Source: an uncultured Clostridia bacterium (lineage in GTDB: Bacteria > Bacillota > Clostridia > TANB77 > CAG-508). From it: a stretch of DNA of 64,000 nucleotides. A model generated the notes under the pieces. It was not told the DNA's origin, ran no database searches, and worked only from the letters and a program-made list of their open reading frames with translations. The stretch is taken from assembly GCA_944389475.1 (NCBI GenBank), contig CALXMM010000006.1, positions 6,755 through 70,754 on the forward strand, read 5' to 3'. The position numbers and the translations under genes were made by a program. Within the stretch, counting starts at the first letter, position 1, and every line of letters begins with the position of its first letter. This document shows positions 4,996 through 19,400 of the stretch, one piece after another.

Positions 4996-5556
4996 TTATG
5001 TATTGCTTAATATATTTTCAGATGTCTTCCATCCAATTATATATCTACTTATTCTTTTTTCTGAATATTCTGACATTAAAACTCCTGTTGGTATTGCACC
5101 AACACTTTCCATAACTCTTCTAGATGCATCATCTTCCAAATCATGGCATACAATAATTTCATCCATTCCTAATTCTTTACATTTATTTACAAGCATATTT
5201 GCAACTGCTTTGCCATATCCTTTTCGCCTCTCTGAAGGTCTAATTCCATAAGATAAATTTCCTAAAATATCTTTTCCAGGTTGAGTTAAATTTATTCTAA
5301 TAGCTGTAGCGCCAATCAATTTATCTTGATCATTTATTACTAAATAATAATAACATTTTTCGTACCATTCTTCTTTATTATGTAATTCATTAGCTGCATT
5401 TTCAGCAACTCTTACTATATTTCTATAATCTATCTCATTATCACAAGGTAATTCTAAAATATCAGGTGTTAAGGAAGTATTACTTTTTTTCCATTCTTGT
5501 ATCATATCTATATATTGAATATAATATCTTGGTTCTATTTTTTCGAATCTTAACAT
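4996..5556 (-). CDS. GNAT family N-acetyltransferase
   Basis: GNLSYGIRPSERRKGYGK motif A, followed by ASRRVMESVG. Confidence 0.88.
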   Translation of the reverse strand: MLRFEKIEPRYYIQYIDMIQEWKKSNTSLTPDILELPCDNEIDYRNIVRVAENAANELHNKEEWYEKCYYYLVINDQDKLIGATAIRINLTQPGKDILGNLSYGIRPSERRKGYGKAVANMLVNKCKELGMDEIIVCHDLEDDASRRVMESVGAIPTGVLMSEYSEKRISRYIIGWKTSENILSNT

Positions 5557-5621
5557 GCATATGTCCCCCTATATTATTTTTTTCGATATATTTCCTATTT
5601 TTCCTTGTAAATAAAGACATT

Positions 5622-6066
5622 TTATTGCTTTTTTTCATACCAATCTGCAAACACTTTAAATGAATTAATTGATTTTTCTCTTTTTCTATTATCCCTTTCT
5701 TCCTTTGTCATTTGTGCTAATGTTTTATCATATCCATATGGTATAAATATATACCATAAATCTGACCATTTTTCATTTGTATCATTTCCTAGAATTTTTT
5801 TAGATAATGTTCCATTATGTCCAATGTAAAATTCACAAAAGCTCTTGGGAATCCATTTAGTTCATCTATCCAAAAGCCAGAATCTAATGATATACATGGT
5901 TTATTTACTAATTTATATGCTTCTTCAACTTTTACTTTAGAGATATATTTTATATTATCACTTCTAGGTTCATCTAAATCGTATTCTTTATATTTGCATT
6001 TTTTAAAACCTTTTGTGCTGATGCAATTTTTCCTTTATTATGTGTTACAAAAATTAATTCTTCCAT
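5622..6066 (-). pseudogene. Disrupted Ham1/RdgB-type non-canonical purine NTP pyrophosphatase
   Basis: Three reading frames join into one Ham1-like protein: MEELIFVTHNKGKIASAQ / EYDLDEPRSD..PCISLDSGFWIDELNGFPRAFV / HNGTLS..KWSDLWYIFIPYGYDKTLAQM. Frameshifts lie near 5985 and 5820. Confidence 0.8.
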
Positions 6067-6132
6067 AAAAAGTTCCCCCTTTTGTGAAACATTTTATCAC
6101 AAAAGAAGGAGTTATAGTTAATTTTTATAAAA

Positions 6133-7320
6133 TTATTCTTCAAACATATTTTTTCTATTATATTTTTTACAATTTAATTTTTCTTTTAAATAAATACATT
6201 CTTCCAAATCAATATCAAATGTATTAGCTAAACATACAACATAATAAAGTACATCCTGTAATTCTTCTTCTATTGTTCCTTTTATTTCCTTTCCTTGCAT
6301 TCTTACATTTTCATTAACATCTTTTGCAAGTTCTCCTACTTCTTCCATTAACTTAAGCATATACTTTTCTTTTGTATTATTTTTATGATTAATTTTGCTT
6401 ATGCATTCTTGTAATCTTTTTATTGTTAAATCTGCTTGCTTTGGTTTTCTACCTCTCTTAGATTTTTTTGGAGTAAAATTAATATCCATTATTTCATCTG
6501 TATTTTGATATTGTATTGGTTGCATTGGAATTGTTTGCAATTCTTGATAAGGATCATCAAAGTCTTTTGAATAATCAATTTTATCTAATTTTCTTGTTTT
6601 AGTCATTTGACCTATATTTGTTGCTACAGATACATTTTCCAAATTGTAATTCATATTTCCAATAGTTTCTGCTGCTTCTGTAATTACATTATCATTAATT
6701 TTCTTTTTTCTTCCTCTTTTAGCTGGTACTTTTTCTAAATTGTTTTGTCTTACTATTTGAGTTTGCTCTACATTATTATTTTTTTCTATCTTATTATTTG
6801 TTTTCTTTGGAATATCTATTATTTTCTTTTTGGCTAAATCATTTTGTTTTACACCATATAAAATAGCTAATTCTTCATTTTCTAATATAGTTTTAAATGC
6901 CTTTTTATAATCATCTATTTTTTCATCAAGTAATTCTTGATTTGCTATATATTCTATGCTATCTTCTGGTAAATTCATAAACTCTTGGGCTGTATAGAAT
7001 ATGTTGATTAGTGCTATTACATTTTTGGCAAATTTTTTCTTCTTGTAATTTATTAATTTTTTATCAAATAAAATTATCTTATTTTTTGCCTCTATATATT
7101 CCTCTAAAACATATTTTTCCAAATTATATTTTCCCCAAACTTTTAGGATTAAAGTACCATTTGTATTTTCCTCAAATATAGGAAATAGTATAAAATTCAC
7201 ATCATTTTCTTTTAAGCATTTTGGAAAAAACATCTGATATTTTCCTACAGGATTGTATTCTTTCCAGTTATCCAATATTCCATCCATTAATGCAATTCCG
7301 TTTTCTAATTCTTCTTCCAT
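6133..7320 (-). CDS. Protein with unknown N-terminal domain, low-complexity linker and C-terminal MazG-like pyrophosphohydrolase
   Basis: C-terminal LMEEVGELAK..IEEELQDVLYYVVCLAN..IDLE is the MazG ExxE..ExxD motif; the first ~290 aa are not recognised. Confidence 0.8.
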   Translation of the reverse strand: MEEELENGIALMDGILDNWKEYNPVGKYQMFFPKCLKENDVNFILFPIFEENTNGTLILKVWGKYNLEKYVLEEYIEAKNKIILFDKKLINYKKKKFAKNVIALINIFYTAQEFMNLPEDSIEYIANQELLDEKIDDYKKAFKTILENEELAILYGVKQNDLAKKKIIDIPKKTNNKIEKNNNVEQTQIVRQNNLEKVPAKRGRKKKINDNVITEAAETIGNMNYNLENVSVATNIGQMTKTRKLDKIDYSKDFDDPYQELQTIPMQPIQYQNTDEIMDINFTPKKSKRGRKPKQADLTIKRLQECISKINHKNNTKEKYMLKLMEEVGELAKDVNENVRMQGKEIKGTIEEELQDVLYYVVCLANTFDIDLEECIYLKEKLNCKKYNRKNMFEE

Positions 7321-16835: not shown

Positions 16836-16897
16836 AAATCCTCTCCCATATAAATCTACTATATATTTTATAGTTTTTTTACTTATTTTTAATTAGT

Positions 16898-16990
16898 CCG
16901 ACCGGTCAGGTTTTGAGCTTATTTTGTTTATTAACAGTATTTCATTTAACATACCATTCTTATTTTATCATATTTTTGAAAATCTTACAA
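16898..16990 (-). promoter_or_regulatory. fab operon promoter (TTGTAA-17-TAAAAT, 16990-16962) and a downstream GC-rich palindrome CCGACCGGTCAG (16898-16909), a possible operator
   Basis: Read directly from the sequence; the palindrome stands out in an otherwise AT-rich leader. Confidence 0.5.
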
Positions 16991-17049: not shown

Positions 17050-17088
17050 AAAAATGAGGAACAGAATTAAAATCTATTCCTCATTTTT
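17050..17088 (-). terminator. Intrinsic terminator of cassette A
   Basis: AAAAATGAGGAA...TTCCTCATTTTT stem with T tracts on both strands. Confidence 0.8.
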
Positions 17089-17142
17089 TTGTGCTTTATC
17101 AGCACTTTTAAATAGGCAATTGGCCTCTATCTTCACTGATGT

Positions 17143-17586
17143 CTATTGATAAGGTAGTTGGAGAAACAGCACATGCCTTGGGGCCACACGCAAATCCATA
17201 TAGATATAATTATCATCTTTAAAGTTAACATTAGATACCCACTCCAAATTAGTTTTGAGCTTCTTAAGCATCAATTTAAACTCATCATCCATAGTCTCTG
17301 AGCCAGGATAAATAATAAAGCAAGTCTCAGATTTAAGAAGATCCTTCATTAATTGAACAGGGAACTCACTATGTAAGTGTACTCTACCAATAAAAAAGAG
17401 AGTCTCCTCTTTAAAATCACCAGGATTATACTGGATGAGTTTTAACTTTCGGAGTAATGAATTCGTATGCGGTAAACAAACCTCAAATACAGTGCACTTA
17501 TGTCGCCAAAACTCTTTATCATCAAATGAAACAATAGGATTTCCATTTTTCTTATTCATACCACATACAAAAACAGTGGCAGGCAT
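17143..17586 (-). CDS. Orphan protein, cassette A (paralogue of 17854..18282)
   Basis: RBS AGAAAGGA. Shares TVFVCGM, NGN, VSF, WxHKCxVFE, YNP, DLL, KL..LEW and RHV with the neighbour. About 35% GC (hand count, 360 nt). Confidence 0.8.
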   Translation of the reverse strand: MPATVFVCGMNKKNGNPIVSFDDKEFWRHKCTVFEVCLPHTNSLLRKLKLIQYNPGDFKEETLFFIGRVHLHSEFPVQLMKDLLKSETCFIIYPGSETMDDEFKLMLKKLKTNLEWVSNVNFKDDNYIYMDLRVAPRHVLFLQLPYQ

Positions 17587-17691
17587 ATTTAATCCTTTCT
17601 ATTGTTAAAATAATATTTTTATTGTATAGATGCCAAAAGAAAAATTTTCTCCTTTCTTTAATTGCCTAAATTTACAATTGTAACAAATTAT

Positions 17692-17720
17692 ATTATACCA
17701 CTTTTATTGAATATCTTCAA
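17692..17720 (-). promoter_or_regulatory. Sigma-A promoter of cassette A
   Basis: TTGAAG-17-TATAAT with extended TG; same boxes and spacing as cassette B. Confidence 0.75.
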
Positions 17721-17755
17721 ATATTTTTTAATAATAATTTATTTAATAAAAGAAA

Positions 17756-17783
17756 TGAGGGACAGAATTTAATCCATCCCTCA
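17756..17783 (-). terminator. Intrinsic terminator of cassette B
   Basis: TGAGGGA...TCCCTCA stem followed by TTTCTTTT on the minus strand; homologous to the cassette A terminator. Confidence 0.75.
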
Positions 17784-17853
17784 CTTTGCAGTGCATTAAT
17801 AGCACTTTTGCTTAGGCAATTGGCTTCTAGACCTATATCTTGCAGTATTGCTA

Positions 17854-18282
17854 CTACATGTCGGTAGACACCACATGCCTCGAAGTCCTGCGCTCTACTC
17901 TCTGAACGACACGGTCATTGCAGCGGATTGCATACATCCACTCCAAAGTCTTGATGAGCTTGTTAAGGCTCCTCTCGAAGGTGTCGGTAGTCCTGAAGTC
18001 GGAAGACAGAACGAAGAAAACTTCGGCATAGAGAAGATCATTCATCATATCTTCGGAGCACTCCTCCTGGAAGAAATCTCCAACGATAAACCACTGAATC
18101 TCCTCACCGGAATCATTCTTCGGGTTGTACTCATTGATGACCATGGTCTTATAAGCTGTTTCATCGTTACTCGAGAGGTCAATCTCGAAAACCGGGCACT
18201 TATGAGACCAGGCATCATCCCCGAAGGAAACCATAAAGTTTCCATTTTCCTTCATACCACAAACAAAGACAGTGGTAGACAT
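17854..18282 (-). CDS. Orphan protein, cassette B (paralogue of 17143..17586)
   Basis: RBS GAAAGGA; motif-level homology to cassette A; about 47% GC (hand count, 360 nt). Confidence 0.8.
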   Translation of the reverse strand: MSTTVFVCGMKENGNFMVSFGDDAWSHKCPVFEIDLSSNDETAYKTMVINEYNPKNDSGEEIQWFIVGDFFQEECSEDMMNDLLYAEVFFVLSSDFRTTDTFERSLNKLIKTLEWMYAIRCNDRVVQRVERRTSRHVVSTDM

Positions 18283-18389
18283 GTTTTATCCTTTCACTTG
18301 TTGATACTATAGTCTATAGTACAGATGCCAAAAGAAAAAAATATTCTCCTTTCTTTAATTGCCTAATATGTACATCTGTAACACCTTAT

Positions 18390-18418
18390 ATTATAGCACA
18401 GTTTTCCATTTTCTTCAA
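18390..18418 (-). promoter_or_regulatory. Sigma-A promoter of cassette B
   Basis: TTGAAG-17-TATAAT with extended TG. Confidence 0.75.
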
Positions 18419-18476: not shown

Positions 18477-19400
18477 ATGGAAATTAAAGAAAGATATAAT
18501 CATTTAAATACTTATTATAAAAATAAATTTGGTGAAAGGACATTAAAAATCTGCATAGATGCTGGTTTTACATGTCCTAATCGTGATGGAAGTTTAAGTT
18601 ATGAAGGCTGTATATTTTGTAGTGAAAAAGGCTCTGGTGAATTAATAAAATTCTCTAATTTAAATATAACTAAACAAGTCCAAAACTTTTTAAATAGTTA
18701 CAGAGGTAAGCGTGCAAATAAATTCATTGTATATTTTCAAAATTTTACAAACACTTATGATTCTGTCCCAAACTTAAAAGCTAAATATGATGCAGCTTTA
18801 GTTGATGATAGAATCGCTGGCTTATCTGTCGCAACAAGACCAGATTGTATTACAGAAGAAATTGCGGTTCTACTTGAATCATATTCTAAAAAATATAATG
18901 TTTCTGTTGAACTAGGCTTGCAGACTTCAAATAATAAAATTGGAAATTTAATTAATCGTTGTTATTCTAGCAATCAATTTACAAATGCTGTTAACATTTT
19001 AAGAAAACATAATATCGAAGTAATTGCTCATATGATGATTGGACTTCCTACTGAAACATTTGAAGATATTAAGAATACTGTAGAATTTATAAATGTACAT
19101 GATATTCAAGGGCTTAAAATACATTCTACATATATTGTTAAAAATACTGTTTTAGCAAATATGTATTACAAAAACAAATATATTCCAATTACTTTAGACT
19201 ATTATTTAAATAATCTAGCATATGTTATAACACATTTAAGACCGGATATAATAATTCATAGAATTTCTGGAGATGCACCTAAAGATTTGCTTGTAGCTCC
19301 AGAGTGGAATTTGCATAAAAAGTGGGTTTTAAACGGTTTCGAAAAATTATTGAAAGAGCAAGATTTGTGGCAAGGAAAATATTATAAAGAAAAAAGTTAG
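18477..19400 (+). CDS. TIGR01212-type (YhcC/YtqA-like) radical SAM protein
   Basis: DAGFTCPNRDG..GCIFC, VATRPDC, VELGLQT, HRISGDAP. Confidence 0.9.
   Translation: MEIKERYNHLNTYYKNKFGERTLKICIDAGFTCPNRDGSLSYEGCIFCSEKGSGELIKFSNLNITKQVQNFLNSYRGKRANKFIVYFQNFTNTYDSVPNLKAKYDAALVDDRIAGLSVATRPDCITEEIAVLLESYSKKYNVSVELGLQTSNNKIGNLINRCYSSNQFTNAVNILRKHNIEVIAHMMIGLPTETFEDIKNTVEFINVHDIQGLKIHSTYIVKNTVLANMYYKNKYIPITLDYYLNNLAYVITHLRPDIIIHRISGDAPKDLLVAPEWNLHKKWVLNGFEKLLKEQDLWQGKYYKEKS

What the first reader, a model, noticed from the sequence alone, without database searches (positions are those of the whole stretch)
17050..18418. Tandem orphan cassettes whose 5' and 3' UTRs fold into a conserved three-way junction around the ORF
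Seen: two ~700-bp units have the same layout. Each has a TTGAAG-17-TATAAT promoter, a ~100-nt leader, an ORF, a trailer and a TGAGG terminator. The leader carries TAGGCAATT-[AAAGAAAGGAG..TTTCTTT hairpin]-TGGCATCT, which is the same in both units apart from the hairpin loop. The trailers read ATAGAGGCCAATTGCCTA (A) and CTAGAAGCCAATTGCCTAA (B). These complement the two leader segments flanking the hairpin, giving a ~18-bp helix with an A mismatch at the same position in both. Each unit also has a 5' TACA-nn-TGTA hairpin and a 3' GTGC-loop-GCAC hairpin whose loops differ between copies. The proteins share only scattered motifs, while the UTR helix is preserved. Inference: the RNA frame is under selection separately from its cargo. 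It could be a processing, circularisation or replication signal, a translation lock like the 5'-3' pairing of type I toxin mRNAs, or a carrier for exchangeable ORFs. I do not recognise the RNA motif or the protein family.
Basis: partly seen in the sequence, partly recalled or inferred. Interest (0 to 1): 0.88.

Follow-up and report, generated by a model that had tools for sequence, protein, structure and literature searches.

The report
mRNA end-pairing frame around orphan genes
Two neighbouring genes for an unknown small protein each sit in a strongly conserved untranslated frame whose start and end can base-pair, most likely an mRNA-stability or translation-control device like one known in Bacillus subtilis; it is confined to a few uncultured Clostridia and is not a general carrier for different genes.

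Summary
On the minus strand there are two roughly 700-bp monocistronic units, each with an extended -10 promoter, a leader of about 100 nt, an ORF (142 and 147 aa, 39% identical), a trailer and a terminator. In both, leader TTAGGCAATT-[hairpin]-TGGCATCT is complementary to trailer AGAnGCC-AATTGCCTA. Folding the whole 630-nt mRNA gives this 5'-3' helix at probability 0.5-1.0.

Exhaustive searches found one tiny orphan protein family: six clusters at two chromosomal loci in uncultured Clostridia. Scans of 596 Gb of genomes, JGI metagenomes and IMG/VR never found the frame with any other cargo.

The 10-bp helix 1 and the adjacent hairpin occur in every unit that has a leader. Helix 2, and so the full three-way junction, is specific to one lineage. 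One unit has lost the leader but kept the trailer.

Helix 1 shows no compensatory change, only one U-A to U-G. The terminator and the small 3' hairpin do covary. The leader evolves more slowly than the protein's nonsynonymous sites. The trailer partner lies in a 100%-identical island inside an otherwise diverged, swapped allele block.

Best reading: a cis 5'/3'-UTR long-range interaction of the B. subtilis hbs type. It is a new member of a known kind, untested experimentally.

The parts
18390..18418 (-). Unit B promoter, TTGAAG-17-(TG)TATAAT
18357..18366 (-). Unit B helix 1, 5' strand: TTAGGCAATT
   Evidence: Invariant in all 8 distinct leaders.
18331..18356 (-). Unit B leader hairpin P2. An SD-like strand AAAGAAAGGAGAA pairs with a U/C-rich anti-SD-like strand.
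   Evidence: (100% of cells paired, with G.U to G-C one-sided changes)
18323..18330 (-). Unit B helix 2, 5' strand: (T)GGCATCT
17854..18282 (-). ORF B, 142 aa, orphan family (cluster P0004). GC3 is 0.62 in a genome where fabH GC3 is 0.11.
17822..17828 (-). Unit B helix 2, 3' strand: AGAAGCC
17812..17821 (-). Unit B helix 1, 3' strand: AATTGCCTAA
17790..17806 (-). Unit B small 3' hairpin: AGTGC-loop-GCACT
   Evidence: one compensatory C-G to U-A in L008
17753..17786 (-). Unit B intrinsic terminator
   Evidence: three pairs with compensatory changes across units
17692..17720 (-). Unit A promoter, TTGAAG-17-(TG)TATAAT
17660..17669 (-). Unit A helix 1, 5' strand: TTAGGCAATT
17636..17659 (-). Unit A leader hairpin P2 (SD-like / anti-SD-like)
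17628..17635 (-). Unit A helix 2, 5' strand: (T)GGCATCT
17143..17586 (-). ORF A, 147 aa, orphan family (cluster P0001)
17122..17128 (-). Unit A helix 2, 3' strand: AGAGGCC
17112..17121 (-). Unit A helix 1, 3' strand: AATTGCCTAT (9 of 10 positions pair)
17091..17105 (-). Unit A small 3' hairpin: GTGC-loop-GCAC
17050..17088 (-). Unit A intrinsic terminator, flanked by an A-run and a U-run

Best explanation
Each unit is an independently transcribed monocistronic mRNA of about 630 nt. A segment near its 5' end (UUAGGCAAUU) pairs in cis with a segment of the 3' UTR just upstream of a small hairpin and the terminator (AAUUGCCUAA).

In the window's lineage the helix is extended by a second 7-bp helix on the far side of a leader hairpin. 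This clamps the two ends of the message into a multi-branch junction that encloses the ORF.

By analogy with the B. subtilis hbs mRNA, the clamp most likely controls access of ribonucleases to the leader (RNase Y, RNase J1, possibly RNase III). That would set mRNA lifetime and, indirectly, translation.

The leader hairpin pairs a copy of the true SD (AGAAAGGAG against AGAAAGGAU) with an anti-SD-like U/C strand. Held shut by the clamp, it would keep that strand from pairing with the real ribosome-binding site.

What is shown: sequence complementarity, thermodynamic prediction, the conservation pattern and sense-strand polarity. What is inferred: the transcript ends, that the pairing forms in vivo, and the effect on decay or translation.

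The cargo is a fast-evolving, allele-swapped orphan protein of unknown function.
For: **Pairing and prediction**
- Both partners are present in every unit that has a leader: 8 distinct units, 5 protein clusters, 2 loci.
- Helix 1 base-pair probability is 0.5-1.0 (0.9 or more over the core pairs) in 6 of 7 full-length mRNAs and 0.51-0.75 in L012, including the distant L008 and L010. It is in the MFE of all of them.

**Conservation**
- The trailer partner ATTGCCTA is the longest invariant block of the 3' UTR across 9 trailers.
- In L008 against L010 it lies in a 23-nt island of 100% identity. That island sits inside a swapped block whose trailer is otherwise 47-70% identical and whose ORF has dS 0.92. 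The flanking genes have dS 0.15-0.25.
- Most leader distances (K 0.08-0.25) are below ORF dN (0.35-0.59).
- A-B leader identity (83%) is no higher than between species (80-84%), so gene conversion within one genome is not the cause.

**Strand polarity and local structure**
- One-sided changes keep pairing as G.U on the sense strand only. Examples are U38.G148 in L008, G67.U146 in L012, and the G.U pairs in P2.
- The local hairpins in the same transcript covary. The terminator has 3 pairs with changes on both sides and the small hairpin has 1. So these UTRs behave as structured RNA.

**Architecture and precedent**
- The architecture matches the hbs LRI. There a 14-nt 5'-UTR segment pairs with a complement just upstream of the terminator, and mutating it changes RNase Y cleavage and stability (PMC5737220).
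- Anti-SD-like sequences are known to act on the RBS at long range in B. subtilis (PMC12697547).
Against: - There is no compensatory covariation in helix 1: 8 of 10 pairs never vary. Conservation of two complementary sequences is therefore the only evolutionary evidence.
- Helix 2 is not conserved in the second lineage (probability 0).
- The P0006 unit has an intact ORF with only a 25-nt leader that lacks helix 1 and P2, yet it keeps the trailer element. This is seen in two independent samples. So the cis clamp is dispensable there.
- Per-unit significance of the complementarity is modest.
- The true SD is not consistently sequestered or released by the trailer in predictions.
- The anti-SD:SD alternative appears in predicted folds of only 2 of 5 leaders.
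- There are no expression data.
- Only about 5 independent lineages exist.
Confidence: 0.5

Rival explanations
1. The conserved trailer block, small hairpin and terminator form a 3'-UTR-derived small RNA, or simply act between molecules. Its seed CCAAUUGCCUAA pairs in trans with the leaders of cassette mRNAs, both its own family's and its neighbour's, giving cross-regulation between tandem units.
For: - The P0006 unit keeps the trailer seed although its own leader lacks the partner, while the upstream P0005 unit in the same contig carries the partner.
- The conserved trailer island extends beyond helix 1 into the small hairpin, ATTGCCTAA.TAAAAGTG. A seed followed by a hairpin and a terminator is the usual layout of such sRNAs (own knowledge).
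- The leaders of units A and B are identical in the paired segments, so either trailer fits either leader.
Against: - Genomes at the second locus carry a single cassette in the DNA seen.
- Cis pairing is favoured by proximity, and it is predicted with high probability.
- There are no other exact targets in the 64-kb window.
- There is no evidence of processing.
Confidence: 0.13
2. The long-range duplex (17 bp with one mismatch in the window's units) is mainly an RNase III processing site. Cleavage would excise or destabilise the message, as with the icaR 5'/3' duplex or rRNA processing stalks.
For: - Coaxial helix 1 plus helix 2 gives about 17 bp of duplex in units A and B.
- The icaR 5'-3' UTR duplex is an RNase III substrate (PMC3868564).
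Against: - In L008 and L010 only 9-10 bp remain. That is short for RNase III (own knowledge).
- The duplex does not involve the SD.
Confidence: 0.12
3. The feature acts at the DNA level. The 10-bp inverted repeats flanking the ORF, or the conserved leader as a whole, serve recombination. They could be an ORF inversion switch, or simply homology arms that allow allele replacement and cassette gain or loss. On this view RNA pairing is incidental.
For: - Allele replacement occurred at the second locus, with the left boundary near the leader/ATG junction.
- L012 has lost the second unit and carries a hybrid trailer. This fits recombination between repeated trailers.
- The units are tandem, and copy number varies.
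Against: - All family-bearing contigs fetched (27 cassette copies in 21 contigs, 8 distinct leader-bearing units plus the leaderless P0006 unit) have the ORF in the same orientation relative to the promoter.
- No recombinase lies among the neighbours at either locus.
- G.U wobbles would be A.C mismatches on the other strand.
- The right boundary of the swapped block lies beyond the terminator, so the trailer island is conserved within ancient alleles, not by homogenisation.
- 10 bp is short for homologous recombination.
Confidence: 0.1
4. There is no function in the pairing. Leader and trailer are each conserved for separate reasons, such as a protein or ribosome binding site in the leader and a terminator-proximal element in the trailer. 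The 9-10-nt complementarity would then be a historical accident inherited by all copies.
For: - There is no covariation.
- Per-unit chance is about 1%.
- All copies descend from one ancestor.
- One unit functions without the leader.
Against: - Both partners would have to stay invariant by coincidence while the surrounding trailer diverged by 30-50%.
- Helix 2 adds adjacent complementarity in the same register in the window's lineage, with a wobble-preserving change in L012.
Confidence: 0.15

Closest known systems
B. subtilis hbs mRNA 5'/3'-UTR long-range interaction (Braun, Durand and Condon 2017, PMC5737220)
   Same: - A monocistronic Firmicute mRNA for a small protein.
- A 5'-UTR segment next to leader hairpins pairs with a complement in the 3' UTR just upstream of the terminator.
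- The duplex is 10-17 bp here and 14 bp in hbs.
- An SD or SD-like element lies in a structured leader.
   Different: - There is no sequence or protein homology.
- Here the 5' strand is split around a hairpin in one lineage, giving a junction.
- The cargo is an orphan protein.
- The effect on RNase Y and RNase J1 is untested.
- The frame is conserved across paralogues with diverged ORFs.
S. aureus icaR 5'-3' UTR pairing (Ruiz de los Mozos et al. 2013, PMC3868564)
   Same: [quoted passage not shown]
- The pairing creates a duplex that could be an RNase III substrate.
   Different: - In icaR the 3' motif (UCCCCUG) pairs with the SD and blocks initiation.
- Here the paired segment lies about 55-70 nt upstream of the true SD and does not cover it.
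Fold-back 5'-3' pairing of type I toxin mRNAs (hok fbi element, Helicobacter aapA1; own knowledge)
   Same: - End-to-end pairing of a short monocistronic mRNA with its own promoter and terminator.
- A possible metastable 5' hairpin in the nascent transcript.
   Different: - The proteins are 141-147 aa and not small hydrophobic peptides.
- No antisense RNA promoter was found.
- No SD lock is seen.
STAB-SD leader elements (B. thuringiensis cryIIIA; own knowledge) and long-range anti-SD-like sequences (Gill et al. 2025 preprint, PMC12697547)
   Same: - An SD-like AAAGGAG lies far upstream of the start codon.
- A U/C-rich anti-SD-like strand lies in the same leader.
   Different: - Here the two are paired with each other in a conserved hairpin.
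- Any stabilising or switching role is inferred only.

Membership tests
5'/3'-UTR long-range interaction mRNAs (hbs type) | Complementary segments in the 5' UTR and in the 3' UTR just upstream of the terminator of one transcript | tested here: met
   The transcript ends are inferred from promoter and terminator matches.
5'/3'-UTR long-range interaction mRNAs (hbs type) | Pairing shown by probing and by compensatory mutations that alter cleavage or stability | not testable with these tools
   Only thermodynamic prediction and natural variation are available. There is no compensatory change in helix 1.
icaR-type 3'UTR-SD pairing | The 3'-UTR motif pairs with the Shine-Dalgarno region | tested here: not met
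   Helices 1 and 2 lie 55-70 nt upstream of the true SD. The probability that the SD is paired is 0.44-0.78, with inconsistent partners and no consistent change on removing the trailer.
Type I toxin-antitoxin mRNA | Small (under about 60 aa) hydrophobic toxin peptide | tested here: not met
   ORFs of 141-147 aa that are conserved as proteins.
Type I toxin-antitoxin mRNA | Overlapping antisense RNA gene | tested here: inconclusive
   No conserved promoter-like site on the opposite strand was found. The small 3' hairpin reads as a weak terminator on the + strand. No expression data exist.
Invertible element or integron-like cassette | Nearby site-specific recombinase, and both orientations or excised forms in populations | tested here: not met
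   The neighbours at both loci are housekeeping genes. All 27 cassette copies in the 21 family-bearing contigs are in the same orientation. Read-level data were not available.
Any Rfam family | Match at the gathering score | tested here: not met
   There were 0 matches in the whole window. Only chance-level hits appear at E up to 10 in the region.
Any known protein family (Pfam, NCBIfam, PHROGs, PADLOC, PDB) | Significant profile match | tested here: not met
   AlphaFold models had pLDDT 40-42, so no fold search was attempted.

The most novel reading that the evidence does not exclude
The frame may be a self-contained RNA expression device. A decoy-SD/anti-SD hairpin would be held shut by a 5'-3' clamp that forms only once the whole message has been made, gating decay and translation of the cargo.

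The same conserved leader would double as the recombination arm through which anciently diverged alleles of a conflict-type orphan protein are swapped between strains. That would make it a small 'plug-in socket' for one hypervariable gene family.
Probability: 0.12. Interest if true: 0.65.

Novelty: new member of a known kind. Interest (0 to 1): 0.4.

Why it matters
Few bacterial mRNAs are known in which the 5' and 3' UTRs pair; the hbs paper itself names icaR and hilD as the earlier cases. All were found one gene at a time.

Here the pairing partners are the best-conserved parts of a transcription unit whose coding sequence has diverged to 35-50% identity. The unit has also been replaced by ancient alleles between close strains. 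That gives a natural series of variants for asking what such a clamp does. The series includes a leaderless unit, units lacking helix 2, and a unit with the hairpin at the stop codon deleted.

It also flags a tiny, fast-evolving orphan protein family with strongly atypical codon composition in uncultured Clostridia. The reach is limited: a handful of MAG lineages, no known protein function and no experimental data.

Tried and rejected
**Searches that found no annotation**
- Rfam on the region at E up to 10, and on the whole window at gathering score, found nothing.
- Pfam, PHROGs, PADLOC, NCBIfam and a PDB profile search gave no significant hit.
- Two AlphaFold runs with the 8-sequence alignment gave pLDDT 42 and 40. 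They were unusable.
- blastn of the 1.4-kb pair against plasmids and phages found no match.

**Looking for other cargo**
- The leader pattern scan of GTDB genomes gave 2 real hits, both carrying the same P0003 unit, plus 3 chance hits.
- The same scan of IMG/VR gave 0 hits.
- The trailer pattern scan of metagenomes gave 1 real hit and 18 chance hits.
- The idea of varied cargo was therefore rejected.

**Tests of significance and mechanism**
- Duplex energy and longest-complement statistics are weak for single units, because A-runs and U-runs pair readily in shuffles.
- The test for an SD lock by the trailer gave no consistent signal.
- Gene conversion as the cause of A-B UTR similarity was rejected. 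A-B leader identity is no higher than between species.

**An artefact**
- The apparently longer spacer in L003 is a scaffold gap of Ns.
Full report
**1. What is there**

The finding lies on the minus strand. There are two tandem units.
- Unit B runs from 18418 to about 17753 and carries an ORF of 142 aa (18282..17854).
- Unit A runs from 17720 to about 17050 and carries an ORF of 147 aa (17586..17143).
- They sit between a divergently transcribed radical-SAM gene and the fabH-fabD-fabG-fabF operon.

Each unit has the same layout.
- A TTGAAG-17-TATAAT promoter preceded by TG. These are the two best promoter matches in the region.
- A leader of about 95-100 nt, assuming a conventional start site.
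- An AGAAAGGAT Shine-Dalgarno sequence, then the ORF.
- A trailer of about 40-50 nt, a small hairpin, and a long intrinsic terminator.

In an alignment of the two units, the UTR segments are nearly identical in long blocks while the ORFs are about 58% identical. The proteins are clear paralogues (39% identity, E = 2e-23).

**2. The leader/trailer complementarity is real**

- TAGGCAATT-N-TGGCATCT occurs exactly twice in the window, against 0 expected. GCCAATTGCCTA occurs twice. Exact TTAGGCAATT occurs only at the four cassette sites.
- Helix 1 pairs TTAGGCAATT with AATTGCCTA(A/T). Helix 2 pairs GGCATCT with AGA(G/A)GCC and has an A.G or A.A mismatch at the same column. A 9-10-bp hairpin (P2) separates the two 5' strands.
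- RNAfold of the complete mRNAs places both helices in the MFE and centroid structures. Partition-function probabilities are 0.5-1.0, and 0.9 or more over the core pairs.
- For one unit taken alone the statistics are modest. A perfect complement of at least 9 nt with at least 3 G/C arises in 0.5-1.8% of shuffles. Duplex energies beat 88-99.7% of shuffles. The UTRs are A/U-rich, so some pairing is easy to find.

**3. How widely it occurs**

*Protein searches*
- An exhaustive HMMER search of 1.84 billion representative proteins with a profile of A and B found three clusters.
- A profile search of 5.8 billion clusters found six in all: P0001 (= A), P0004 (= B), P0005, P0006, P0002 and P0003.
- There is no Pfam, NCBIfam, PHROG, PADLOC or PDB match. 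AlphaFold models were unusable (pLDDT 40-42).

*Loci*
- All members come from metagenome contigs or MAGs at two chromosomal loci.
- One is the fabH-upstream locus. It is present in the window and its near-identical strains (L001-L007). A relative with about 90% fabH nucleotide identity carries P0005 plus P0006 there (L012-L016).
- The second locus lies between truA, a 197-aa membrane protein and an ArsP-like permease. It carries P0002 (L008) or P0003 (L010, L019, L020, L025).
- The only organism labels are 'uncultured Clostridia bacterium' MAGs.

*Pattern scans for other cargo*
- A leader pattern that leaves the hairpin free was scanned over 596 Gb of species-representative genomes. It returned only two real loci, both the P0003 unit, plus three chance hits. 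Scanned over IMG/VR, it returned none.
- A trailer pattern scanned over metagenome contigs returned one real locus, again P0003, and 18 chance hits.
- There is no similarity to any plasmid or phage record.

So the frame exists only with this one protein family. It is not a general carrier.

**4. What is conserved and what is not**

*Conserved across all units with a leader* (eight distinct units)
- The extended -10 box.
- TTAGGCAATTAAA.
- The P2 hairpin.
- TTTTG(G/T)CAT.
- The SD.

*The trailer*
- As a whole it is no better conserved than the ORF (K 0.19-0.56).
- It does contain an invariant ATTGCCTA followed by AA.AGTG. This is the longest invariant block of the 3' UTR.

*Pair counts*
- Helix 1 has 10 pairs. 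Eight never vary, one is U-A to U-G in L008, one is broken in L010 or unit A, and none shows a compensatory change.
- P2 has 100% of cells paired, with G.U to G-C and G.U to A-U one-sided changes.
- Helix 2 has only 73% of cells paired. It is intact only in the fabH-locus lineage, with a G-C to G.U change in L012.
- The small 3' hairpin has one compensatory C-G to U-A.
- The terminator has three pairs with changes on both sides.

*Other observations*
- Helix 1 keeps probability 0.7-1.0 (one end pair unpaired in L010) in full-length L008 and L010 mRNAs. Helix 2 has probability 0 there.
- The conserved core is therefore helix 1 plus P2, not a full three-way junction.
- The P0006 unit has a promoter fused to a 25-nt leader that lacks helix 1 and P2. 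It still retains AATTGCCTAA in its trailer. This is seen in two independent samples.
- A strain variant of B (L001) has lost a hairpin that overlaps the stop codon.

**5. Evolutionary rates**

- B against its orthologue P0005: dN 0.10, dS 0.29, ratio 0.33. These are genuine protein-coding genes under moderate constraint.
- All other pairs have dS of 0.9-1.8 and dN of 0.35-0.59.
- Leader distances are 0.08-0.25 for most pairs. Pairs of unit A with L008/L010 reach about 0.5, and the unit-A leader boundary was offset by 5 nt. For most pairs the leader therefore changes more slowly than the nonsynonymous sites of the ORF it precedes.
- A-B leader identity (83%) equals between-species values (80-84%). 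Concerted evolution within one genome is therefore not the explanation.
- At the second locus the flanking genes of L008 and L010 have dS 0.15-0.25 and dN 0.013-0.026. The cassette ORF has dS 0.92 and dN 0.37.
- Identity drops from about 90-95% in the flanks and leader to 57-75% at the ATG. It recovers only beyond the terminator.
- So an anciently diverged allele, trailer included, has been exchanged between close relatives. Within that swapped block, the 23 nt ATTGCCTAAATAAAAGTGTTATA are identical. This is the strongest evidence that the trailer partner of helix 1 is under selection.
- At the fabH locus, the second position holds A in one species and P0006 in the other (44% identity, dS 1.1). 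L012 has lost that unit and carries a hybrid trailer.

**6. RNA or DNA**

- The G.U pairs in P2, helix 1 (L008), helix 2 (L012) and the terminator are pairs only on the sense strand.
- All elements lie between the predicted start site and the terminator.
- No orientation variants are seen among the 21 family-bearing contigs fetched (27 cassette copies).
- No recombinase is nearby.
- No promoter-like site for an antisense RNA was found.
- I therefore read the feature as sense-strand RNA structure.

**7. Mechanism**

*Closest documented case.* This is the B. subtilis hbs mRNA. A 14-nt segment downstream of the leader hairpins pairs with a complement just upstream of the terminator. Mutating either side changes RNase Y cleavage in the leader and the stability of the transcripts (PMC5737220). 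The layout here is the same in kind.

*Cases that fit less well.* The icaR case is a 3'-UTR motif pairing with the SD, with RNase III cleavage (PMC3868564). It is less close, because helix 1 and helix 2 do not touch the true SD. Predictions show no consistent SD sequestration that depends on the trailer. A type-I-toxin lock is not supported, given protein size, the absence of an antisense gene and the absence of an SD lock.

*A further inferred element.*
- P2 pairs a copy of the true SD (AGAAAGGAG against AGAAAGGAU) with a U/C-rich strand that resembles an anti-SD.
- Such strands repress B. subtilis mRNAs at long range by pairing with the RBS (PMC12697547).
- In leader-only folds, the anti-SD strand pairs with the true SD in B, and in L008 when the decoy is blocked. 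It does not do so in A, L010 or L012.
- A clamp that holds P2 shut is therefore plausible but weakly supported.

*Rivals.*
- A trans-acting 3'-UTR-derived sRNA. This is favoured by the leaderless P0006 unit keeping its trailer.
- An RNase III site.
- DNA-level recombination arms or an inversion switch.
- Non-functional inherited complementarity.

**8. Verdict**

There is a separately constrained RNA frame with 5'-3' pairing, and alleles of one family are exchanged within it. It is not a multi-cargo system. The full three-way junction is lineage-specific. The long-range helix shows no covariation.

It is best filed as a new, computationally inferred member of the small class of bacterial mRNAs with a 5'/3'-UTR interaction, wrapped around an orphan, fast-evolving protein family in uncultured Clostridia. 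Interest is moderate.

Noticed in passing
window 17143-17586 and 17854-18282 (minus strand); L008 6001-6426; L010 5560-5985; L015 200-625 and 784-1212: All cassette ORFs are compositionally foreign to their host.
- GC3 is 0.33-0.62, against 0.11-0.15 for fabH and birA.
- Their folding energies are -91 to -146 kcal/mol per roughly 430 nt, against -48 to -68 for host gene segments.
- B, P0005 and P0003 fold better than synonymous-codon shuffles (z from -2.6 to -5.4). A and P0006 do not.

The cause is unexplained.
   Followed up: partly
window 17619-17636 and 18314-18331 (minus strand): A 5-codon mini-ORF, UUG GCA UCU nnn nnn UAA/UAG, begins at the last U of the P2 hairpin and overlaps the 5' strand of helix 2.
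- The stop falls at codon 6 in all six distinct leaders, although the codons differ.
- The SD-like AAAGGAG lies 12-14 nt upstream, inside the hairpin.

It could be a leader peptide or a coincidence.
   Followed up: partly
L015 700-783 and L016 40-121: The P0006 unit has a promoter-like TATAAT fused to a leader of about 25 nt. This is a deletion of roughly 75 nt that removes helix 1, P2 and helix 2. Its trailer still carries GGTCAATTGCCTAA. The same form is seen in two independent samples.
   Followed up: yes
L008 about 5990-6550 against L010 about 5550-6110: The locus is a hotspot of allele replacement. The flanks are about 95% identical (dS 0.15-0.25). The cassette ORF, trailer and terminator are 47-75% identical (dS 0.92, dN 0.37).
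   Followed up: yes
window 17848-18312 (+): A 154-aa ORF runs antisense across the whole of ORF B. There is no counterpart opposite ORF A. It is probably a by-product of the GC-rich third positions.
   Followed up: no
window 16893-16913; L015 about 1484-1506: A palindrome-containing element, TTAGTCCGACCGGTCAGGTTT, lies upstream of fabH and is conserved in the related species. It may be the operator of a fatty-acid synthesis regulator.
   Followed up: no
L008 5195-5788; L010 4753-5349: The upstream neighbour at the second locus is a 197-aa predicted membrane protein with an unusual Asn/Cys-rich low-complexity tail (NCNCNCNCNCSC...). It has no Pfam match.
   Followed up: no
window 17835-17858 (minus strand); L012, L010 and L008 just after the stop codon: A hairpin overlaps the stop codon, GTAGTA-GAAA-TACTAC.
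- L008 shows a G-C to A-U change in it, TAATA...TATTA, seen by eye but not scored as a compensatory pair.
- It is absent in unit A and deleted in the L001 variant of B.
   Followed up: partly
window 18477-18493 (+): The start of the radical-SAM gene, ATGGAAATTAAAGAAAG, resembles the leader segment GGCAATTAAAGAAAG (I2 and I4). This is probably chance in A/T-rich sequence.
   Followed up: no
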